Positions 1 to 51,153 of a DNA stretch of 64,000 bases are shown here, piece after piece. A program made the position numbers and the translations under genes. Positions within the stretch are counted from its first letter, which is position 1; every line of letters begins with the position of its first letter. This DNA is from a bacterium (GTDB lineage: Bacteria > Patescibacteriota > Patescibacteriia > JBAXGH01), in NCBI GenBank assembly GCA_037139515.1, contig JBAXGH010000001.1, forward strand, positions 16,101-80,100, read 5' to 3'. The notes beneath the pieces were generated by a model that worked only from the letters and a program-made list of their open reading frames with translations, was not told the DNA's origin and did no database searches.

Positions 1-1083
1 AAATATCGCGAGAATCACGAAGGGCGCCTCGTACTTATCGCGATCGCCTTGCTCGCTATGAGTCAGCATCCGCTCCTCGGGATTCCGCTCACGATTTTAA
101 TTTTTGTTTCAATTATATTTCCAAAGCACCAAAAACCAAAAACCAGAATTATTTTCGTTTTTATTTTGACGACTCTTTCTATTCCGCTACTCCTTGCAAT
201 AAATCAGATTAAGCTCGGTGCCACACCTTTCTCGTACACAAACCCACTCGCCCGCCTGGATTTCTTTTTCGGACTTTTTAAGAATTCTTACACGAATCCA
301 GAATCAGCGGATTTTTTCATGCGCGCGTTGTACGGATGGAAGACATATTTTCCGATCATCGGACTCGCGCTCGCCATGGTTGGCTTCTATCGAATCAGAA
401 AAAACGAATCCGCGCAGATTCTCGTTGCTTCACTTGCCGGCCTTCTGCTCGCGATTTTTGGTACCTCCACACTTTTTTATATTCCCGGCATTGCCTGGTA
501 CGAGCAGAGTGAATTTGCCTATCGCCTTCTATTTGCGCTTGGTATCGGACTTTTACCACTTATAATATCCGGGCTCGTCACGATTACCGAAAAGATAAAA
601 ATCGAAACGCTGATTCTCGTGCTTTCTTCATTTGCGATGACTATTTCCTGGTATTTTAGCTATCCGCAAAACAATCAAATCGTGAATGATAATGGCTCGA
701 GCGTCTCAGAATCTGATAGTGAGGCGATTAATTTCATCGAAACCCACGCGAAGGACAAATACGTAGTTCTCGCAGATCAAATGACCTCTGTTAGAGCGCT
801 CGAAATGCTTGGGTTCGAAAGAGCCCAAGGAAAACCAATTCCCATGTATCCGCTACCGGCACAGGAAGAAATCTATTCTGTGTTTTTGGAAATGGCTTGG
901 CAGTCACCGCTCCGAATCTATGCACTTCGAGCCATGGATATCGCGAAAGTAGATAAAGTATATTTACTTATTCCGAGCTACTACCCAGCTTCGGCAACGC
1001 TCAAACAAATTGCACAAAATGAAGCCGACTTTGTTTATGAAACTTCTAACGGCAACATGCTTATCGCCGAATATGATAGATAG
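1..1083 (+). CDS. integral membrane protein, 5' end outside window (partial)
   Basis: The reading frame is open from the first base of the window (ORF track start 49, in frame with position 1). There are multiple hydrophobic segments and no recognisable catalytic motif. Confidence 0.4.
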   Translation, partial: KYRENHEGRLVLIAIALLAMSQHPLLGIPLTILIFVSIIFPKHQKPKTRIIFVFILTTLSIPLLLAINQIKLGATPFSYTNPLARLDFFFGLFKNSYTNPESADFFMRALYGWKTYFPIIGLALAMVGFYRIRKNESAQILVASLAGLLLAIFGTSTLFYIPGIAWYEQSEFAYRLLFALGIGLLPLIISGLVTITEKIKIETLILVLSSFAMTISWYFSYPQNNQIVNDNGSSVSESDSEAINFIETHAKDKYVVLADQMTSVRALEMLGFERAQGKPIPMYPLPAQEEIYSVFLEMAWQSPLRIYALRAMDIAKVDKVYLLIPSYYPASATLKQIAQNEADFVYETSNGNMLIAEYDR

Positions 1084-1115
1084 CATGATATAATTACATC
1101 AACGCAAAAATTTTT

Positions 1116-1547
1116 ATGAAGAAGAAAGTTCTGAATAGTCCGGCACTCGCCGATAAGACGATGAAGATGGCTCTATTTTCCGCCGTCATCCTCTTCGCTG
1201 CCGCCACAAGCATACTGACGCTTGGATCCTCAGCTGCGACTGCACCAAAATCAAAAGCTCCGGCCGTAAAGGCAAAACCGGTTCCGGCAGCCTACAAAAA
1301 AGTAGGTTATAAGTTCCCCGGATACGCAACCCCTGGATACGTTGCTCCGGGATATGTAAGCCCAGGCTACGTCGCCCCCGGCTACACAGCTCCGGGTTAC
1401 GTGAATCCAGGCTACACACGCCCCGGATACGTAAACCCAGGATATACGTCGCCTGGTTATGTGAGCCCCGGCTATGTTGCTCCGGGATATGTGAGACCAG
1501 GATACGTAGCCCCGGGGTACAAGAAACCAGAATACATCCGCCAATAA
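1116..1547 (+). CDS. secreted tyrosine-rich pentapeptide-repeat protein: signal peptide, Ala/Lys/Pro linker, then about 17 tandem PGY(V/T)x repeats
   Basis: Direct reading of the ORF track translation. The N-terminal hydrophobic signal region MKMALFSAVILFAAATSIL is followed by GYKFPGYATPGYVAPGYVSPGYVAPGYTAPGYVNPGYT... through to the C-terminus. Confidence 0.6.
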   Translation: MKKKVLNSPALADKTMKMALFSAVILFAAATSILTLGSSAATAPKSKAPAVKAKPVPAAYKKVGYKFPGYATPGYVAPGYVSPGYVAPGYTAPGYVNPGYTRPGYVNPGYTSPGYVSPGYVAPGYVRPGYVAPGYKKPEYIRQ

Positions 1548-1551
1548 ACAC

Positions 1552-1583
1552 AAAAAAACCGGCTCGTGCCGGTTTTCTGTTTG
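1552..1583. terminator. rho-independent terminator, bidirectional, between convergent genes
   Basis: An A-tract is followed by the hairpin CCGGCTCGTGCCGG and then TTTTCTGTTTG. Confidence 0.6.
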
Positions 1584-4312: not shown

Positions 4313-5740
4313 TTATTTAGCCGTCTTCATCCATTCAACGAGATGCCGAGTCGCCAAGACATCATCCTCATTATAATCGACGATTTTTTGCAATATCTTT
4401 TTATCTTTTTTCTCCAACCAATCATGATACCAGGCAATCGAATTCGCGCCTGACGCGTCCGAAGAGCGCCACTTGAAACCGAGAAATTTAGCAATATCTT
4501 TGAGAGAATAAAAATATACCGGAAACAAAACCGAACGCGAAACAATCGGCAGCACATCAATCATGATTTCGCGATTACCAAGCACGCGCGCCGCAGTTTT
4601 CGTGATCCCGTATTTTTCCGTGAGCTCTTTTATCACGATAATTTCATACCAACCATAGTGATAAATCGCCAGGTTTTTGTAGCGCCCGATGAAAGCCTGA
4701 AATTCTTTCCAAGCTTTTTCTTCGCCGCTCGGTTTCTTCGCAAGAAAAGGTTTGAACTCAGACTTTCCGTTGCGTACCACCAAGCATCCAAACAAATAAT
4801 GCACGCTGCGCAAAGGATCAGATTCCATGTCGAAATATATTTCCGTTTTGGCTTTTGGAAAATTATATTTCTCAACAATCACGGCTTTTTTATCGCGCAA
4901 AGCCTCAGCCTGAAGCCTTAATCTTTCCAAACGCGGCTGAGTAATCGAAGGAACTTTAGCTTTCAACTTTCCAAGGTTGGCTCCGGCTAGCTTCTTGAGC
5001 TTTCCATAACCACCTTTCAGCAAAGCCTCTCTTTCGTCGGCACGAATCTTGTAAATCAAAGCAACATCGTCTTCGCCCTCGGCATCCAAAATACACTGTT
5101 TGAAATACGGCGACTGCTTACAGGAACCGTAAAGATGCGGTTCCGGCTTCTCCCCGGAAAGCAATTCTTCTACTTCCTTCAATTTTAAGTGATATTTTTC
5201 TTCGTAATCAGCGACGACCAATTCATGCGTGGCGCCAGTTGCATCAATAATATAAGCACGCTCCGGCATCACTCCCTGAGCTTTTTTCAGCAATTCCGAA
5301 TAGAAACACAGCTGCAACCGATGAACCTCTTCAAAGTGAGACGAGCGTTTGATATCGCACGGAACGTACATCCAATCACCCAAATCTGAAGTTCCATCAA
5401 CTCGTTCCAGCAAATCCGGAATCCCGACATAATTCCCATCCATGAGTACGCCGTGATAAATCAACCCAGCACCGTCTTTCATGTGCTTCAGGGTCATTTT
5501 TGCCTGGTCCTCCAGGTCGCCTTCATGTTTGATTTCAACCATGCTGGCTTTTTTCGATTTGAGGGCCACCATTTCTGCCTCATGCAAAAGGCCATCTTTC
5601 CAAAGCTTCTCCGTCATGGCCGAAACCGGCGCGCGTAGTTTGGCATCAGAAAAAGCTTCATGCCAAGGCCAAGCCGGACACTTCGAATATTGATAAAAAG
5701 ATGTGGCTGTGATGCGTATTTCTTGATTTTTCTTTTTCAT
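4313..5740 (-). CDS. RecB-family (Cas4-like PD-(D/E)xK) nuclease fused to an RNase H-like domain, TM0106-type
   Basis: A cysteine cluster typical of Cas4/RecB nucleases (CPAWPWH near the N-terminus, GSCKQSPYFKQC further on). The C-terminal half has the DMESDP...HYLFG pattern of an RNase H-like fold. Assigned by motif similarity only. Confidence 0.4.
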   Translation of the reverse strand: MKKKNQEIRITATSFYQYSKCPAWPWHEAFSDAKLRAPVSAMTEKLWKDGLLHEAEMVALKSKKASMVEIKHEGDLEDQAKMTLKHMKDGAGLIYHGVLMDGNYVGIPDLLERVDGTSDLGDWMYVPCDIKRSSHFEEVHRLQLCFYSELLKKAQGVMPERAYIIDATGATHELVVADYEEKYHLKLKEVEELLSGEKPEPHLYGSCKQSPYFKQCILDAEGEDDVALIYKIRADEREALLKGGYGKLKKLAGANLGKLKAKVPSITQPRLERLRLQAEALRDKKAVIVEKYNFPKAKTEIYFDMESDPLRSVHYLFGCLVVRNGKSEFKPFLAKKPSGEEKAWKEFQAFIGRYKNLAIYHYGWYEIIVIKELTEKYGITKTAARVLGNREIMIDVLPIVSRSVLFPVYFYSLKDIAKFLGFKWRSSDASGANSIAWYHDWLEKKDKKILQKIVDYNEDDVLATRHLVEWMKTAK

Positions 5741-8984: not shown

Positions 8985-9953
8985 TTAGTCGCTGAATTCC
9001 TGCACGAACATCTTTCCGTAGATTCCGGCGTCGATTACCCCAACGCCTAATTTTCCGTAGTCTTTAGATAAAATATTAGCTCTATGGCCCTCGGAATTCA
9101 TCAAACCATCATAGGCATATTCAACATCAGGCGCAAAAGCCAAGTTTTCACCGAGAACGCGATATTCGATTTTCATGTTTCCGGCGCGGGTACCGGGCGT
9201 GCTTCCATCTTTGCCGTTATGCGAGAAAAAACCCTGTTCAACCATAGTTTCACCGTATTTTCTAGCCAAATCACGAAGCTTCGTATCGTAAACAAGAGGC
9301 TTTATTCCGCGCGCAATTCTTTCGCTATTCACATGCTCAAACATCGTCGACTCGCTTTCTTCATCTACCGAATGATTGGTTGAACTAAATCTCAAACTCA
9401 CGCTTTCGTCAGACTTTGGATGAATCGTAAGAAAGGCCAGACTATCTTTAACAGCCGGAGAAAATATATTATTAATGCTGCGATCGATGCGATCCGAGAA
9501 ACGCGCTATCGGAGCACCGAGATTTGATCTCAACACAGCCTGCTTAACCGAACCGGAAAGCGGCAGAGTTACAAGTAGCGGCAGAACCACCATGAAGAGC
9601 ACGAGCGCATCCAAAAGCGCCGGCAGGAACCCAGACCACTTATTTAATTTGTGATTTTTTATGTCATCAGGAATCTTTCGATAAATAATCCGCGCGAAAA
9701 ATGGATAGAGCAAGCCGATACAGATCCAGATTGCAAAAAAAGCTATCGCATTTGCAAACGAGATCGGAATTTCTTTGAACTTCAAAATAATCTTCGCGAC
9801 CTGAACATAACCGACAAAGGCAAGCAGAAGCGAAATCAAAAAACCAACCACTTCGGTCAGAACCAAAAGAAAGCCTCTTCGAATACCATCAATCGAATAT
9901 AAAATAGCGATTATTACGAGAGCCGCATCAGTCCACCACGGTTGAATAACCAT
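8985..9953 (-). CDS. CvpA-family membrane domain fused to a C-terminal CAP/SCP (YkwD-like) domain
   Basis: The N-terminal four-TM region resembles colicin V production protein. The C-terminus has GFFSHNGKDG...EGHRANIL typical of CAP domains. Confidence 0.5.
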   Translation of the reverse strand: MVIQPWWTDAALVIIAILYSIDGIRRGFLLVLTEVVGFLISLLLAFVGYVQVAKIILKFKEIPISFANAIAFFAIWICIGLLYPFFARIIYRKIPDDIKNHKLNKWSGFLPALLDALVLFMVVLPLLVTLPLSGSVKQAVLRSNLGAPIARFSDRIDRSINNIFSPAVKDSLAFLTIHPKSDESVSLRFSSTNHSVDEESESTMFEHVNSERIARGIKPLVYDTKLRDLARKYGETMVEQGFFSHNGKDGSTPGTRAGNMKIEYRVLGENLAFAPDVEYAYDGLMNSEGHRANILSKDYGKLGVGVIDAGIYGKMFVQEFSD

Positions 9954-10082: not shown

Positions 10083-10691
10083 ATGATTTCTCAACCGCTC
10101 ACCAAAAAACAAAAAGACATTCTGGACTTTGTGAAAAAGTTCGTCGCTACAGAAGGCTACGCTCCTTCCTACGCGGAAATTGCTGAACACTTCGAACTCT
10201 CATCAAAAGCGTCGGTCGCGCAGTACATCAGCACCCTCCAAGAGAAAGGATATCTCACAAAAGATGGCACTGCTCGTGGAGTCGCCATGACCGAAGAAAC
10301 TCCAAAGCGCACAGCTTTCGAACTCCCCCTTCTCGGCTTAATCGCCGCTGGCACACCAATCGAAGCCCTCGAAGGCCGAGAAACCATGACTATTCCGGAA
10401 GAACTGGTACGCGATCCGTCGCTCTCATATGTTTTGAAAGTCATGGGAACTTCAATGATAGAAGATGGCATTCTCCCGGGTGACTTCGTGGTAGTTGAAA
10501 AAAACGAAAAACCAAATAACGGCGACACCGTTGTCGCGCTGCTCGAAAACACCTACGCGACACTAAAAAGATTCTACAAAGAACCGGGAAGAATCAGGCT
10601 CCAGCCGGCAAACAGCACCATGCAACCGATCTATACAAACGACGTAACGGTCCAAGGTATAGTCCGCGCGATTATCCGAAAGTATACGTAG
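10083..10691 (+). CDS. lexA: LexA repressor (S24 peptidase)
   Basis: N-terminal winged helix-turn-helix. A-G cleavage site in LIAAGTP. Catalytic Ser (GTSM) and a downstream Lys. Confidence 0.9.
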   Translation: MISQPLTKKQKDILDFVKKFVATEGYAPSYAEIAEHFELSSKASVAQYISTLQEKGYLTKDGTARGVAMTEETPKRTAFELPLLGLIAAGTPIEALEGRETMTIPEELVRDPSLSYVLKVMGTSMIEDGILPGDFVVVEKNEKPNNGDTVVALLENTYATLKRFYKEPGRIRLQPANSTMQPIYTNDVTVQGIVRAIIRKYT

Positions 10692-11693: not shown

Positions 11694-12896
11694 ATGCTTG
11701 AACGCATCATTTTTCACATCGATATGAATGCGTTTTTTGCTTCCGTAGCACAACAGGCTAACCCCCTGCTCCGCGGAAAGCCTATTGGTGTTGGTGGTAA
11801 ACCCGGAACACGTTCAATTATCGCCGCTGCCTCATATGAAGCTAAAAGACTGGGCGTGAAATCAATCATGAACTCGTACGAGGCGCTCAAAATAGCTCCT
11901 AACTTAATCATCGTTGATGGCGACAATGAAGCTTATATCGAGGCCAATCATCGTTTCGTAACAATCTTTAAAAGATATACACATCTGGTTGAGGTATTTT
12001 CTATCGACGAATGTTGGCTCGATATGACCGGTTACGCAAAATCATACGAACATGCTCGCGAACTAGCCATTGCGATAAAAGAAGACATGCGCCGTGAACT
12101 CGGCGAGTGCATTACCTGTTCAATCGGTATCGCGCCGAATAAACTGCTTGCTAAACTTGCTTCTGACAAAGAAAAACCAAACGGTCTTTATATCATTAGA
12201 CCAAGCTCGGTTTCGGTGATAATGAAAACAACAAAACCAAACGAGCTACTTGGAATCGGACCACGCGTCAGCTTGCACATGGAGCGTCTCGGCCTGAAAA
12301 CAAACGAGCAAATAGCTGAAGCTCCAGATAATCTGCTCGAGAATGAATTCGGGATTCTCGGCGCAATATACAAACTAATCACGAAAGGCATCGACGAGTC
12401 TCCGGTAATCTCAATCAGCTCGACAGCAAAATCTGTTGGAAATTCTTATACGATGCCGCTTGATAGCGCCGATTCACGCATACTTAAGCCAACGCTTTTT
12501 GCTATATGCGAAAAGGTTGCGCGTAGGTTGCGAAGAGATGGTCTTCTGGCCCGCCAAATTACCACCTGGGGTAGGTATAAAAACTTCGAAGGATCATTTC
12601 GTCTCATGCGCACCCTGGACGCACCGACTTTCGATGCAAAGACACTTCTCGAAACAAGTTTACCGATAATAATGTCGGGCGCAAGAAGCGGCCCGATCCG
12701 CGCACTTGGTATCACGACCCACAACCTAATCAGCTCCACAAAAACTCCGCTACCACTTTGGACATCCGATCGCAAACGGATAATCGCAGCCTCGGCCTGC
12801 GATAAAATAAATAACCATTTCGGAGAAAGAACCATCAAACCGGCTAGCCTACTCGGAACAAGACTAAATCGGCACGTTTCCGGCTTTAAACCATAA
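11694..12896 (+). CDS. dinB: DNA polymerase IV (Y-family)
   Basis: N-terminal IFHIDMNAFFASV and SIDECWLDMTG motifs characteristic of the DinB/UmuC palm domain. Confidence 0.9.
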   Translation: MLERIIFHIDMNAFFASVAQQANPLLRGKPIGVGGKPGTRSIIAAASYEAKRLGVKSIMNSYEALKIAPNLIIVDGDNEAYIEANHRFVTIFKRYTHLVEVFSIDECWLDMTGYAKSYEHARELAIAIKEDMRRELGECITCSIGIAPNKLLAKLASDKEKPNGLYIIRPSSVSVIMKTTKPNELLGIGPRVSLHMERLGLKTNEQIAEAPDNLLENEFGILGAIYKLITKGIDESPVISISSTAKSVGNSYTMPLDSADSRILKPTLFAICEKVARRLRRDGLLARQITTWGRYKNFEGSFRLMRTLDAPTFDAKTLLETSLPIIMSGARSGPIRALGITTHNLISSTKTPLPLWTSDRKRIIAASACDKINNHFGERTIKPASLLGTRLNRHVSGFKP

Positions 12897-14064: not shown

Positions 14065-15246
14065 TTATACCATATCACGCACAGCCTTCGCTATGATACC
14101 CGAAATTCGGGTATCAAGAATGTCTGGCAAGATATTTTCAGGACCCGGATTGTCTACAGTTTCAGCAAGAGCATGGGCAGCTGCGAGCTTCATTTTTTCT
14201 GTCACCTTTTTGACACGTGCATCGAGCAGTCCGCGAAAAAACCCTGGGAAAATAAAGGCGTTATTGACCTGATTTGGAAAATCAGAGCGACCGGTTGCGA
14301 CCACCATAGCACCGGCGCTCTTAGCCAAATCAGGCATAATTTCCGGAGTCGGATTCGCCATCGCAAAAACGATTGCCCGTGGTGCCATGCTCGCAATTCC
14401 GGATTCATCCACAACTCCCGGCTGGCTCAAACCGAGAAATAAGTCAGCACCAACCAAAGCTCCCCGCAAATCAGACGAAACATTTCGCGGATTCGTCATT
14501 TTCATGAGTTCGATCTTGGCATCATTCAAATCAGTTCTTCCGGAATGCAACGCGCCCTTAGAATCAAAAACCACAACGTCGCGAAGTCCGGCAAGCATCA
14601 AAAGCTTAACAACTGCAGTCCCGGCGGCGCCGGCGCCCGAAACAACCGCTCGCACATCAGCAATATTTTTTCCGACGACTTTAAGCGCATTCAAAAGTGC
14701 GGCCAGCACTACAATAGCCGTGCCGTGCTGATCATCGTGAAAAACCGGAATATCGAGAAGCTCGCGCAAACGAGCTTCGATTTCAAAGCAGCGCGGCGCC
14801 GAGATATCTTCCAAATTTATGCCACCAAAGGAAGGCGCGATTCGTACCACGGTTTCGATAATCTCTTCAACATCCTGAGTATTCAAAACAATCGGAAAAG
14901 CATCAACCCCGCCAAAAGACTTGAATAGCGCCGCCTTTCCCTCCATAACCGGAAGCGATGCTAAAGCACCCAAATTCCCGAGTCCGAGAATCGCCGACCC
15001 GTCAGAAACAACTGCGACGGTATTTTTCCGACATGTAAGTTCAAACGCCAAAGCCGGATTTGCGGCTACAGCCAGAACCACATCAGCAACTCCTGGAGTA
15101 TATGCGAGCGACAAATCTTCGCGTGTTGCAAGCGGAACTTTTGCCGTCACTTCAATCTTGCCGCCGAATTTTTTGTGCATTTCAATCGAACGTTCACCAA
15201 GTGTCATATGTTTATTTTTTAGGTTCGCCAAAACTATCAAGCTCAA
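14065..15246 (-). CDS. NAD(P)-dependent malic enzyme (short form, without a PTA domain)
   Basis: HKKFGGKIEV...DLSLAYTPGVA N-terminal signature. Two Rossmann GxGxxG motifs (VVSGAGAAG). Confidence 0.85.
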   Translation of the reverse strand: MSLIVLANLKNKHMTLGERSIEMHKKFGGKIEVTAKVPLATREDLSLAYTPGVADVVLAVAANPALAFELTCRKNTVAVVSDGSAILGLGNLGALASLPVMEGKAALFKSFGGVDAFPIVLNTQDVEEIIETVVRIAPSFGGINLEDISAPRCFEIEARLRELLDIPVFHDDQHGTAIVVLAALLNALKVVGKNIADVRAVVSGAGAAGTAVVKLLMLAGLRDVVVFDSKGALHSGRTDLNDAKIELMKMTNPRNVSSDLRGALVGADLFLGLSQPGVVDESGIASMAPRAIVFAMANPTPEIMPDLAKSAGAMVVATGRSDFPNQVNNAFIFPGFFRGLLDARVKKVTEKMKLAAAHALAETVDNPGPENILPDILDTRISGIIAKAVRDMV

Positions 15247-17311
15247 TTACCCCATCATCATCTTTAAATTCATCATCCGTTTTCCAAACCGTAGCGGTAC
15301 GGTCAGATTTTTCGTGATGCCCCCGCCCGCGTTCTTCTTTTTTTCGACCTGCATAACGAAGCTCGAGTTTCTCGTATAGGTGAGGCGAGATTTCATCAAC
15401 AAACATCGAAGGCTGAACCACCTCAAGATACTCATCCCCCATGACAGACGGGTAAGTCAAAAATAGTTTTCGCGCCGCCCGAGTCACGGCCACGTAAAAC
15501 AAGCGACGTTCCTCTTCCAAGCCATTCGGTTCCTCCATGGCGCGCCGATTTGGGAAATATTGATCGCACAAATGCATCACAAAAACCGTGTGCCACTCAA
15601 GACCCTTCGCTTGATGAATAGTCGAAAGCACTAAATGATCTTCATTTACATCATCATCGCCGGATCTTTGCGCTACGATTCCGTCGTACAAACTGACTTC
15701 GGCCAAAAACGCCGCCGGATCATCATATTGCGCCGCAAAAACCGCGAGCTGCTCCAAATCATCAAGTCTTTCTTCAAAGTTCGGAAACTCGGCCGCGAGA
15801 ATATCGCGATAAACAGATTTTGGAACCGCGCGAATCATTGAAGACGCCGAATCGGAGTTACCCATCACGGCGCGAATCACGCTTTCTATTTCTCTGAATC
15901 CTTCCCGCGAACGCGAAGTTAAAGCCGACGGAATTAACACCAAACCTTCCGCCAAAGTTTTAGCTTCGATCTGAGAAATAAAAGCTTTGCGAGCAGCCGC
16001 CTCCCCGATTCCTTTCCCCAAAAGAAGCGCACGCATCCAGGCCATTTCGTCTTTCGGATTCACCGACAAGCGCACAAAAGCCAGCGCGTCTTTAATATGA
16101 GAACGCTCAAAAAACTTCATGCCTCCGCGATATTCATAAGGAATCCCGCGCTTCATGAGCTCAAATTCAAGCTGTTGCGAATGATGTGCGGCGCGGAACA
16201 GAACGCAGGCGTCGGAAAACGGACGTCCTTCGCCGTTGATTTTCGTGAGCATTTCGGCAATGAAATGCGCTTCTTCGTGCGCACTCGCGGTCGGCACCAA
16301 AAATGGCTTCTCCCCGCTTGCAATCGCGCTCTTCAAATGTTTTTTAAATTGATTAGCATTGCGCGAAATACTTTCATTCGCGAGTTCCAAGATTTCCGGC
16401 GTCGAACGATAATTTGTTTCCAGACGAAAAGTTTTCGCGTCCTGGTAGCGCTTTGGGAATGACAATATATTCCCGATGTCGGCTGCGCGAAAAGAATAAA
16501 TCGATTGCGCATCGTCGCCAACCACAAGAAGATTTTTGTGAACCGAAGAAAGCGCATCAACTACATCCGACTGCAGCGCATTCGTGTCCTGAAACTCATC
16601 GACCAAAACATATTTAAATCGCGAAGACCATTCATAGCGAGCCGATTCGGAATCGACGAGCATTCGACGAAGCAAAACTAACAAATCATCAAAATCGACG
16701 GCATTCGCAGCGCGTTTTTTCTCATCATACTTTCTGATTACGCGAGAAATATCGCCTTCGATTTCAGAGAACTGCGGATATTTGCGAGTAATCACTTCGA
16801 ATAAATTTTTGGAAGCGTTACGCGAATAACTCGCAATCGATTTAACCACGTTCGCCGAAGGAAAACGCTTCTGCGAGGTGTCGACACCTTCTTCTTTGAC
16901 CGCGAGCTTCATCAAATCTTTAGCATCGTCTTCATCCATGATGGTGAAATTCTTTTGCAAGCCGACCCGTTCCGGTGCCGCCCGAAGAATCCGATTTGCG
17001 ACATGATGAAAAGTTCCGCTCCACAAACCCGGCGCTGCTCGTCCAAGCGAAGCCGAAACCCGATCAAGCATCTCGCGTGCAGCCTTATTTGTGAAAGTTA
17101 ATAATAGTATTTCATCCGGACGCACGCCCTGTTCGAGCAGATAAGCCACACGATACACAAGCGTGCGGGTCTTTCCGGAACCGGCACCAGCCAAAACCAA
17201 AACTCGCCCATCACCACCTTTTACGACCGCAAACTGCTCACCGTTGAGTTCTTTTTCAAAATCAATCGCTCGCCCGTTAAAAGCCGAACCCTGCATTTCA
17301 AAAACAGCCAT
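15212..17311 (-). CDS. uvrD: ATP-dependent DNA helicase UvrD/PcrA (SF1)
   Basis: LNGEQFAVV...VLAGAGSGKTRTL Walker A followed by SF1 helicase motifs. Confidence 0.9.
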   Translation of the reverse strand: MAVFEMQGSAFNGRAIDFEKELNGEQFAVVKGGDGRVLVLAGAGSGKTRTLVYRVAYLLEQGVRPDEILLLTFTNKAAREMLDRVSASLGRAAPGLWSGTFHHVANRILRAAPERVGLQKNFTIMDEDDAKDLMKLAVKEEGVDTSQKRFPSANVVKSIASYSRNASKNLFEVITRKYPQFSEIEGDISRVIRKYDEKKRAANAVDFDDLLVLLRRMLVDSESARYEWSSRFKYVLVDEFQDTNALQSDVVDALSSVHKNLLVVGDDAQSIYSFRAADIGNILSFPKRYQDAKTFRLETNYRSTPEILELANESISRNANQFKKHLKSAIASGEKPFLVPTASAHEEAHFIAEMLTKINGEGRPFSDACVLFRAAHHSQQLEFELMKRGIPYEYRGGMKFFERSHIKDALAFVRLSVNPKDEMAWMRALLLGKGIGEAAARKAFISQIEAKTLAEGLVLIPSALTSRSREGFREIESVIRAVMGNSDSASSMIRAVPKSVYRDILAAEFPNFEERLDDLEQLAVFAAQYDDPAAFLAEVSLYDGIVAQRSGDDDVNEDHLVLSTIHQAKGLEWHTVFVMHLCDQYFPNRRAMEEPNGLEEERRLFYVAVTRAARKLFLTYPSVMGDEYLEVVQPSMFVDEISPHLYEKLELRYAGRKKEERGRGHHEKSDRTATVWKTDDEFKDDDGVIELDSFGEPKK

Positions 17312-46786: not shown

Positions 46787-51153
<4,367 letters not shown>

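What the first reader, a model, noticed from the sequence alone, without database searches (positions are those of the whole stretch)
1116..1547. Secreted protein made almost entirely of PGY(V/T)x pentapeptide repeats
After a signal peptide and an Ala/Lys/Pro linker, about 17 consecutive pentapeptides (PGYAT, PGYVA, PGYVS, PGYTA, PGYVN, PGYTR...) run to the C-terminus, so there is one Tyr every 5 residues. This is an unusual, possibly cross-linkable or adhesive, envelope protein.
Basis: seen in the sequence. Interest (0 to 1): 0.5.

Follow-up and report, generated by a model that had tools for sequence, protein, structure and literature searches.

The report
Tyrosine-repeat tail paired with membrane glycosyltransferase
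A small membrane-anchored protein whose tail is 14-17 Pro-Gly-Tyr-x-x repeats is real, and in one group of ultra-small (Patescibacteria) bacteria it always sits beside an undescribed membrane sugar-transferase, so it is probably that enzyme's own substrate or partner rather than a free-standing glue protein.

The parts
1..1083 (+). 3' part (codons 264-623) of the gene for a 623-aa polytopic membrane protein with a GT-C glycosyltransferase fold (full length = P0153, NCBI MEI7740887.1 'hypothetical protein WCJ29_00100 [bacterium]'). It is the first gene of the two-gene cassette.
1086..1094 (+). TGATATAAT, a possible extended -10 promoter element in the 32-nt spacer, 21 nt before the ATG. It is weak and unverified.
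   Evidence: Read directly from the sequence. The promoter scan did not call it because there is no -35 match.
1116..1547 (+). Gene for the 143-aa PGY-repeat protein (stop codon included).
   Evidence: ORF list and translation. The same gene was called in public assemblies L001 and L098.
1116..1166 (+). Lys-rich N-terminal segment (residues 1-17, MKKKVLNSPALADKTMK), probably cytoplasmic. It aligns with the T/K-rich 'TKTxTKT' motif of homologues.
   Evidence: Alignment A3. Flank charges.
1167..1223 (+). Hydrophobic core (residues 18-36) of the single predicted helix (AF2 helix 9-36). It is a signal anchor or a long signal-peptide h-region.
   Evidence: Kyte-Doolittle best 19-residue window. AF2 secondary structure.
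1239..1286 (+). Ala/Lys/Pro-rich linker (residues 42-57, TAPKSKAPAVKAKPVP).
   Evidence: Translation.
1287..1541 (+). Period-5 Tyr array: AAYKK, VGYKF, 14 perfect PGYxx units (1317-1526) and PEYIR. It is predicted to be disordered.
   Evidence: Register table and codon usage. pLDDT about 45 and no secondary structure.
1553..1578 (.). G+C-rich hairpin with T-runs on both strands. It is a bidirectional intrinsic terminator between the cassette and the convergent SBF-like transporter gene (1585-2538, -).
   Evidence: Terminator scan, both strands.

Best explanation
The ORF is a real gene and is the second gene of a conserved two-gene cassette in a clade of Patescibacteria (CPR). The first gene encodes a previously undescribed GT-C-fold integral-membrane glycosyltransferase. 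That enzyme has an invariant G-F-D-P-F-x-H loop on the outer face and an OST-like C-terminal soluble domain. The second gene encodes a single-pass, N-in/C-out membrane-anchored protein whose extracytoplasmic tail is an intrinsically disordered array of P-G-Y-x-x motifs. The proposed mechanism is as follows. The tail is exported by Sec and stays tethered, or is cleaved. The neighbouring GT-C enzyme then transfers sugar from a polyprenyl-phosphate-linked donor onto the repeated motif, most probably onto the Tyr hydroxyl, with P-G-Y acting as a sequon repeated up to 17 times. This would turn the tail into a stiff, protease-resistant, mucin-like glycosylated brush or stalk on the cell surface. Shown here: the gene, the repeat and its protein-level conservation, the GT-C fold prediction, and the conserved adjacency. 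Inferred: the topology, that the tail is the acceptor, that Tyr is the modified residue, and the lipid-linked donor.
For: (1) Gene reality and selection: positions 1+2 of the P/G/Y codons are invariant while position 3 is near random, and a terminator follows.
(3) Asp151 is invariant in GFDPFxH. It sits at the start of a short helix right after a TM helix, on the side predicted to be outside by loop charges. That is where GT-CA enzymes carry their catalytic Asp, at the tip of JM1 (PMC12041299).
(4) Linkage starting from the enzyme: 10 of the 25 most similar loci, against 0 of 54 more distant ones, carry a TM + xGYxx protein directly downstream, with gaps of -43 to +55 nt. Fisher p = 2e-6.
(5) Linkage starting from the small protein: 5 of 5 look-ups have the enzyme homologue directly upstream, at 30-38% identity.
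(6) A Patescibacteria MAG found only through the PGY motif (L005) has a 418-aa TM protein with PGY motifs in its inter-domain linkers, directly upstream of another homologue. In L017 and L025 the PGY array links the TM helix to a globular domain. The constant link to the enzyme is therefore the motif, not the protein architecture.
(7) Repeat number (2-15) and period (4 or 5) vary while P-G-Y is fixed. This behaves like a short linear motif, not a folded repeat.
(8) The repeat regions of 16 members hold 117 Y, 1 F and 0 W, with no PGF or PGW. Ser/Thr are dispensable: 1 in 39 residues in L022 and 7 in 73 here. The Tyr hydroxyl matters.
(9) The wider enzyme family sits among envelope-glycan genes: GT4, GT2+DUF2304, cytidylyltransferase, CDP-alcohol phosphatidyltransferase and MltG.
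(10) The cassette stands alone on the + strand between minus-strand genes.
Against: There is no biochemical or expression evidence of any kind. No GT-C enzyme is known to glycosylate Tyr; known bacterial Tyr O-glycosylation of S-layer proteins uses another class of transferase (my own knowledge, plus review PMC2943079 listed). Topology is not settled: Lys/Arg occur on both sides of the helix, with 5 versus 2 here but 4 versus 5 in L016. No polyprenyl-phosphate sugar synthase (GT2) or flippase homologue was found in the 64-kb window. Most members of the enzyme family (69 of 79 loci) lack the small protein, so the enzyme family as a whole must have another acceptor. Adjacency shows a functional link, not its nature. 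The structural equivalence of Asp151 to the catalytic Asp was not checked by superposition, because no coordinates were accessible.
Confidence: 0.4

Rival explanations
1. The small protein is an accessory subunit of the GT-C enzyme rather than its substrate. Its TM helix would dock onto the enzyme, as small single-pass subunits do in eukaryotic OST. The Tyr-rich tail would bind and present the real acceptor, a cell-wall or secondary polysaccharide, through Tyr-sugar stacking, or would tether the product to the membrane.
For: The same conserved adjacency and overlapping or short gene spacing. A conserved N-terminal TKTxTKT motif and an Ala-rich TM helix. The enzyme's best structural match is AftA, a polysaccharide-modifying enzyme. 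A review of Gram-positive GT-C systems speculates that smaller GT-C enzymes may need a second protein to recognise the acceptor polymer (PMC8035078). Aromatic residues commonly bind sugars (general knowledge).
Against: Most family members (69 of 79 loci) do without it. Repeat number ranges from 2 to 15 and the tail may carry a large extra domain (L017, L025, L005), which is unusual for a fixed subunit. If stacking alone were needed, Phe or Trp should sometimes replace Tyr, yet the count is 117 Y, 1 F, 0 W.
Confidence: 0.25
2. The tail works on its own, as the first reader proposed or nearly so. It would be a disordered, cationic, Tyr-rich wall-spanning spacer, adhesive or oxidatively cross-linkable (di-Tyr or DOPA-like) surface fibre. 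The neighbouring enzyme would be linked only loosely, for example through shared envelope regulation.
For: Tyr every 5 residues with Lys-rich flanks; the mature part has 12 K+R against 1 D+E. The P-G dipeptide at period 5 resembles elastomeric and adhesive repeat proteins. PGY-type repeats recur in unrelated secreted proteins of Alphaproteobacteria and others (L002, P0001, P0084), so the motif can function without this enzyme. In L017, L025 and L005 it is a linker or stalk.
Against: The strict co-occurrence with one enzyme family across loci whose enzymes share only 28-38% identity argues for a direct functional link, as does the reversed gene order in L005. No oxidase, peroxidase or tyrosinase was seen among the neighbouring genes scanned. 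The homologues are mostly not cationic.
Confidence: 0.2
3. The tail is glycosylated by the neighbouring enzyme on Ser/Thr (PMT-like O-glycosylation of a Pro-rich disordered region). Tyr would serve only as a recognition element.
Against: Ser/Thr are not conserved in the motif. L022 has 1 S/T in its 39-residue repeat region and the window protein has 7 in 73, with 7 of its 14 perfect units lacking any. Tyr is invariant.
Confidence: 0.12
4. The ORF is not a functional gene. It would be a chance ORF across a DNA tandem repeat, or an assembly artefact.
For: Low-complexity repeats are prone to assembly error. The exact protein is absent from the clustered protein collection.
Against: The codon pattern shows protein-level selection. 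Homologues sit at the same position in about 15 other genomes. Three assemblies are identical. A terminator follows the stop codon.
Confidence: 0.02

Closest known systems
GT-C (class A) lipid-phosphate-sugar-dependent membrane glycosyltransferases: AftA/AftB, STT3/AglB/PglB, PMT, ArnT, ALG12
   Different: There is no detectable sequence similarity to any Pfam, NCBIfam or PDB GT-C family. Four extra TM helices precede the catalytic-loop helix. The motif is GFDPFxH instead of DxD/DE, and there is no WWDYG motif. A dedicated small repeat protein is encoded alongside.
Multi-component (three-component) transmembrane glycosylation systems: GtrA/GtrB/Gtr*, and CsbB/GtcA/YfhO (PMC8035078, PMC11127046)
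   Same: An extracytoplasmic GT-C enzyme is expected to use a polyprenyl-P-sugar. In 8 of 80 family loci a GT2 with DUF2304 lies nearby.
   Different: The known systems decorate teichoic acids, O-antigen or wall polysaccharides, not a co-encoded protein. No GT2 or flippase lies beside the cassette in this window.
Tyr O-glycosylated S-layer glycoproteins of Paenibacillus alvei and Thermoanaerobacter (review PMC2943079)
   Same: A bacterial surface protein that may carry glycan on the tyrosine hydroxyl.
   Different: In those systems a few Tyr in a folded S-layer protein are modified by a transferase of another class (my own knowledge, not tested here). Here a disordered poly-motif tail is paired with a GT-C enzyme. 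Tyr glycosylation is only inferred here.
Mucin-like or PMT-mannosylated Pro/Thr-rich linkers, and plant Pro-rich cell-wall proteins with pentapeptide repeats (for example PPVYK)
   Same: Disordered, Pro-rich, short-period repeats used as an extracellular stalk or linker. The plant proteins also have one Tyr per five residues.
   Different: The motif is P-G-Y with variable x-x. There is no homology. The organisms are Patescibacteria. The modification chemistry is unknown.
Elastin-like (VPGXG), squid-beak GHGxY and mussel-foot Tyr/Lys repeat proteins
   Same: Period-5 repeats with a P-G or G-x-Y core, predicted disorder and a high Tyr content. This copy also has Lys-rich flanks.
   Different: There is no sequence homology. 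Those are eukaryotic structural materials. No tyrosinase or cross-linking enzyme is seen here. The phmmer hits to such period-5 proteins are compositional.
Pfam Pentapeptide repeat family (A[D/N]LXX, quadrilateral beta-helix)
   Same: A five-residue period.
   Different: There is no Pfam hit, no central Leu/Phe, and no predicted beta-helix; AF2 gives no secondary structure.

Membership tests
GT-C fold glycosyltransferase (upstream partner, window 1-1083 / P0153) | Polytopic membrane protein whose TM core superposes on solved GT-C enzymes | tested here: met
GT-C fold glycosyltransferase (upstream partner) | Conserved catalytic Asp at the tip of the first juxtamembrane helix in an extracytoplasmic loop (PMC12041299) | tested here: inconclusive
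   Asp151 is invariant in 22 of 22 sequences within GFDPFxH. It lies at the start of helix 151-165, after TM helix 122-143. Loop charges place it outside. Equivalence to the catalytic Asp was not verified by residue-level superposition.
GT-C fold glycosyltransferase (upstream partner) | Uses a polyprenyl-phosphate-linked sugar donor | not testable with these tools
   Only context is available: GT2+DUF2304 lies near 8 of 80 family loci, and none lies in this window.
Any curated GT-C sequence family (Pfam PMT_2, STT3, YfhO, ArnT-like and others) | Significant match to the family HMM | tested here: not met
   No Pfam or NCBIfam hit below E 0.05 for P0153 or its L007 homologue. A profile search against PDB sequences gave nothing relevant.
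Oligosaccharyltransferase (STT3/AglB/PglB) with an N-glycosylation substrate | WWDYG motif in the C-terminal domain, and an N-x-S/T sequon in the acceptor | tested here: not met
Pfam Pentapeptide repeat (PF00805) beta-helix proteins | A[D/N]LXX consensus, HMM match, right-handed quadrilateral beta-helix | tested here: not met
   No Pfam hit. The consensus is P-G-Y-x-x. AF2 shows no strands and pLDDT about 45.
Pfam GLTT repeat (PF01744) | Genuine homology to the C. elegans GLTT repeat | tested here: not met
   The whole-sequence score is 23.6 bits against a cutoff of 21, but no single stretch is significant ('stretches 0'). The protein contains no GLTT motif. The match is compositional.
Patescibacterial 'TM + xGYxx tail' small-protein family (defined here) | T/K-rich N-terminus, one TM helix, at least 2 P/S/T-G-Y motifs at period 4-5, encoded next to a GFDPFxH GT-C gene | tested here: met
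   Alignments A3 and A4. Profile search hits P0175-P0181. Adjacency is shown. The window protein has the longest array, at 15 G-Y.
DOPA / di-tyrosine cross-linked adhesive or structural proteins | An associated tyrosinase, peroxidase or laccase, and oxidised Tyr | not testable with these tools
   No such enzyme was found among the 16 window proteins scanned or the neighbours listed. The chemistry cannot be assessed in silico.

The most novel reading that the evidence does not exclude
This is the first example of a GT-C-fold enzyme dedicated to O-glycosylating tyrosine. It would be encoded together with its own 'poly-sequon' substrate, in which P-G-Y is repeated up to 17 times. The pair would build a membrane-tethered, mucin-like glycoprotein brush on the surface of ultra-small episymbiotic Patescibacteria. 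That would mean a new protein-glycosylation chemistry for the GT-C superfamily and a new kind of bacterial surface layer.
Probability: 0.2. Interest if true: 0.85.

Novelty: new variant of a known kind. Interest (0 to 1): 0.62.

Why it matters
Patescibacteria (CPR) make up a large share of bacterial diversity. They live attached to other microbes, and their surface chemistry is almost unknown. This cassette offers a compact two-gene system that can be tested directly. It contains an unannotated GT-C family (at least 374 metagenomic relatives, no Pfam model) and a candidate natural substrate or partner with a very simple repeated motif. If the tail is the acceptor, the pair would define a new sequon (P-G-Y) and possibly the first Tyr-directed GT-C enzyme. 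A 5-residue tag that could be repeated at will would also be useful for glyco-engineering. If the tail is an accessory subunit instead, it would be a concrete example of the 'second protein for acceptor recognition' that has been postulated for small GT-C enzymes. Even the minimal result is useful: a 623-aa 'hypothetical protein' family can now be annotated as a GT-C-fold glycosyltransferase.

Tried and rejected
(1) Homology of the repeat to known families. Pfam gave only a compositional GLTT hit, and NCBIfam gave nothing.

(2) Exhaustive phmmer against 1.84 billion representatives returned 2157 hits. The 26 sequences I inspected among the top 150 are unrelated period-5 low-complexity proteins (PRYTN, PGHTR, PGQVR, EPSYI and others). 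This search was uninformative for orthology and I rejected it as evidence of a large family.

(3) The genome-contig scan with the PGY protein mostly found short, convergent PGY stretches in Alphaproteobacteria and Bacteroidia (L002-L004, L006). I rejected these as relatives. Only L005 proved relevant.

(4) Strain-level repeat variation for this organism: L001 and L098 are identical to the window, so no information came from them.

(5) Rfam and tRNA scans of the window found nothing.

(6) A sequence-profile search of the enzyme family against PDB gave no relevant hit. Only fold comparison worked.

(8) The look-up of P0153's own contig failed. Its cluster mate P0183 gave the upstream context instead.

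(9) I searched the window for the GT2, DUF2304, GT4, cytidylyltransferase and second-GT-C neighbours typical of the wider family. Only MltG/YceG is present, about 21 kb away.

(10) Literature searches for PGY or Tyr-rich pentapeptide repeats and for GT-C enzymes in Patescibacteria found no prior description.

Full report
**1. The observation**

Window 1116-1547 (+) is an ATG-initiated ORF of 143 codons. Its product is MKKKVLNSPALADKTMKMALFSAVILFAAATSILTLGSSAATAPKSKAPAVKAKPVPAAYKKVGYKF(PGYxx)14PEYIRQ. In register from residue 58 there are 17 Tyr at exact period 5: 14 perfect P-G-Y-x-x units (nt 1317-1526) plus AAYKK, VGYKF and PEYIR. The part after the hydrophobic segment is 19% Pro, 17% Tyr and 15% Gly, with 12 K+R against 1 D+E.

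The array is not a young DNA repeat. No two 15-nt units are identical, and mean pairwise nucleotide identity is 62%. In the P, G and Y codons, positions 1+2 are 100% conserved while position 3 is 34% identical, with all four Pro codons, all four Gly codons and both Tyr codons in use. TRF detects only two weak period-30 arrays. This is the signature of long-standing selection on the peptide in this frame. The two antisense ORFs over the same span are shadows of it.

A G+C-rich hairpin with T-runs on both strands (1553-1578) follows the stop codon, ahead of the convergent SBF-like transporter gene. The 32-nt spacer before the ATG contains TGATATAAT (1086-1094), a possible extended -10 element. 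There is no obvious Shine-Dalgarno sequence.

**2. The protein itself**

An AlphaFold2 model built with eight homologues gives one helix (residues 9-36) and nothing else. The repeat region has pLDDT of about 45 and no secondary structure, so it is probably an intrinsically disordered or extended tail.

The N-terminal segment has a roughly 15-residue Lys-rich n-region and a roughly 19-residue hydrophobic core. That is long for a cleavable signal peptide and fits a type-II signal anchor, although an S-A-A site follows it. No signal-peptide predictor was available. In 10 of the 11 family members analysed, the net charge of the N-flank is at least that of the 15 residues after the helix; here it is 5 against 2, and the exception is L016 at 4 against 5. 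This favours an N-in/C-out orientation without proving it.

Pfam gives only a compositional 'GLTT repeat' hit with no significant stretch, and NCBIfam gives nothing.

**3. Relatives of the repeat**

A word-indexed search of 5.8 billion proteins found only two hits. An exhaustive phmmer search of 1.84 billion representatives returned 2157 hits. Of the 150 listed I read 26, and all are unrelated period-5 low-complexity proteins, so I disregard that search. A motif scan of GTDB genomes mostly found short, convergent PGY stretches in Alphaproteobacteria and Bacteroidia.

The useful hit was P0002 (94 aa). It has a T/K-rich N-terminus, a TM helix, and then (P/Q/S)GYxx repeats running to the C-terminus.

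**4. The key finding: a conserved gene pair**

On its contigs, P0002 lies 4 nt downstream of a 635-aa membrane protein. That protein is 38% identical (E 3e-95) to the product of the gene that ends at window position 1083, 32 nt before our ORF. The full-length window protein is P0153, 623 aa, NCBI MEI7740887.1, annotated 'MAG: hypothetical protein WCJ29_00100 [bacterium]'. The sources name its homologues as Patescibacteria group or Candidatus Uhrbacteria MAG proteins.

A metagenome scan with the family alignment found 374 relatives, and I fetched 80 loci. In 10 of the 25 loci most similar to P0153, a small TM + xGYxx protein is encoded directly downstream, with gaps from -43 to +55 nt. In the 54 more distant loci there is none (Fisher p = 2e-6).

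The reverse test agrees. A profile of the small proteins found P0175-P0181, of 70-114 aa. All five small proteins whose contigs I looked up (P0002, P0178, P0179, P0180, P0181) have a P0153 homologue directly upstream, at 30-38% identity.

One further case is independent of both searches. A Patescibacteria MAG locus recovered only through the PGY motif (L005) encodes a 418-aa TM protein with PGY motifs in its inter-domain linkers, and another P0153 homologue lies directly downstream of it (28% identity, E 1e-53). In L017 and L025 the PGY array links the TM helix to a globular C-terminal domain.

In the window's organism the two genes stand alone on the + strand between minus-strand genes: a Peptidase_C39_2 gene upstream and the SBF transporter gene downstream. 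The constant association is therefore between this enzyme family and a P-G-Y motif on a membrane-anchored protein.

**5. What the partner is**

P0153 and its family have no Pfam, NCBIfam or PDB sequence match. The AlphaFold2 model is nonetheless very confident (pLDDT 90.2, pTM 0.90).

- Foldseek agrees, with AftA and AglB on top.

The family has an invariant G-F-D-P-F-x-H motif. Asp151 lies at the start of a short helix (151-165) that follows TM helix 122-143. Loop charges place this loop outside the cell. GT-CA enzymes carry their essential catalytic Asp at the tip of the first juxtamembrane helix (PMC12041299). I did not verify the equivalence residue by residue.

The wider family sits among envelope-glycan genes:

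| Neighbour | Loci (of 80) |
|---|---|
| Second large membrane protein | 42 |
| GT4 | 26 |
| YceG/MltG | 19 |
| Cytidylyltransferase | 18 |
| CDP-alcohol phosphatidyltransferase | 13 |
| GT2 | 8 |
| DUF2304 | 7 |

In the window itself only MltG is present, and it is far away.

**6. What the repeat conserves**

Across 16 family members the repeat number ranges from 2 to 15 G-Y units, and the period is 5 or 4 (for example PGYT in L017 and L037). The x-x positions vary freely. P0176 and the L016 protein are identical except for a 10-residue, two-repeat indel, so copy number does vary between close strains.

The repeat regions contain 117 Tyr, 1 Phe and 0 Trp. None of that variation falls at the motif's Tyr position: there is no PGF or PGW. 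Degenerate units tend to keep Tyr when Gly or Pro is lost, as in PEY, PDY and PVY. Ser/Thr are frequent in some members but nearly absent in others, with 1 in 39 residues in L022 and 7 in 73 here. The motif thus behaves as a short linear motif whose indispensable feature is Tyr itself, including its hydroxyl group.

**7. Interpretation**

My best-supported mechanism, with confidence of about 0.4, is this. The tail is exported and stays tethered. The co-encoded GT-C enzyme then glycosylates it from a polyprenyl-phosphate sugar, most probably on Tyr, with P-G-Y acting as a repeated sequon. The product would be a glycosylated brush or stalk on the cell surface.

Shown here: the gene, the protein-level conservation, the fold, and the linkage. 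Inferred: the topology, the acceptor role, the modified residue, and the donor.

The main rival (0.25) is that the small protein is an accessory subunit that binds or presents a polysaccharide acceptor, as has been speculated for small GT-C enzymes (PMC8035078). Three points count against it: most family members lack the small protein, the tail is highly variable, and Tyr is never replaced by Phe or Trp. It fits the composition but not the strict pairing, and no oxidase gene was seen. Ser/Thr glycosylation (0.12) is disfavoured because Ser/Thr are dispensable. An artefact is excluded.

**8. Comparison and novelty**

The enzyme works like a GT-C and is one by fold, but it belongs to no curated sequence family. 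It is not an N-oligosaccharyltransferase, since it has no WWDYG motif and the tail has no N-x-S/T sequon. The tail is not a Pfam pentapeptide-repeat beta-helix and is not homologous to elastin-like, mussel-foot or plant Pro-rich proteins, which it resembles only in period and composition. Known bacterial Tyr O-glycosylation (S-layer proteins; PMC2943079) uses a different transferase class, to my knowledge.

Literature searches found no description of this pair or family. I rate it a new variant of a known kind: an extracytoplasmic GT-C glycosylation system with a new enzyme family and a new co-encoded repeat partner. The upside is a categorically new chemistry if Tyr is the acceptor.

**9. Limits**

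Everything here rests on sequence, predicted structure and gene neighbourhood. No expression data, no topology experiment and no glycan evidence exist.

Noticed in passing
window 47695-51153 (+): The GyrB gene is interrupted by an intein. The Pfam Intein_splicing match spans residues 489-911, between the DNA_gyraseB and Toprim domains.
   Followed up: no
window 4313-5740 (-): A 475-aa fusion of a Cas4/PD-(D/E)XK-like nuclease domain with an RNase_H_2 superfamily domain. No CRISPR context was examined.
   Followed up: no
window 10083-10691 (+) and 11694-12896 (+): LexA repressor and a Y-family (impB/mucB/samB) polymerase lie close together, with a UvrD helicase at 15212-17311 (-). This is a small SOS-like neighbourhood.
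   Followed up: no
window 1-64000: There is no tRNA, tmRNA or Rfam match at gathering score anywhere in the 64 kb. GC skew is negative in every 2-kb bin, with a cumulative value of -3.3, and most long ORFs are on the minus strand.
   Followed up: no
window 8985-9953 (-): A 322-aa fusion of a CvpA/Colicin_V-production membrane domain with a CAP (cysteine-rich secretory protein) domain.
   Followed up: no
L017 5094-5903, L025 5722-6594, L005 9407-10663: After the PGY linker these Patescibacteria proteins carry a roughly 150-aa globular domain with no Pfam match (motifs GTAVYWYGADGKRYVFP ... IGGNVTYRPG ... DIPDxFFxNY). It is duplicated in L005.
   Followed up: partly
L013 2740-3732, L014 2719-3735, L016 216-1349, L022 662-1849, L093 752-1885: A 330-395-aa AAA+ protein (Pfam AAA + AAA_lid_9) lies immediately upstream of the GT-C gene in several cassette-bearing loci. 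In L016, L022 and L093 it overlaps the GT-C start. It is absent beside the window's cassette, where a Peptidase_C39_2 gene lies upstream instead.
   Followed up: partly
L020 3082-3429, L092 592-921, L096 2516-2860 (P0177, P0180, P0178): A sub-group of the small proteins has a conserved C-terminal extension after the GY repeats (GYGTFxKLTTPQFVKERMxWVxRFIxGKL). It looks like an amphipathic helix and is absent from the window protein.
   Followed up: no
42 of the 80 loci L012-L091 (representative: L027 378-2189, -): A second large membrane protein of about 600 aa (N-terminal '...TSPDETANYFF...' motif; only a weak DUF5693 hit) is the commonest neighbour of the GFDPFxH family. It may be another unannotated GT-C-like enzyme.
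   Followed up: partly
P0084, P0001, L002 739-1779: Unrelated secreted proteins also carry P-G-Y repeats: a PGYMG/PGNMG-repeat protein with a signal peptide (P0084), and PGYV(A/S/T) stretches in a Rhodoplanes MAG (L002) and an unidentified metagenome contig (P0001). The motif appears to have arisen convergently.
   Followed up: no
window 1116-1544 product: The exact 143-aa sequence is reported as absent from the clustered protein collection, although the gene-position index finds it on 3 contigs. This is a database inconsistency rather than biology.
   Followed up: no
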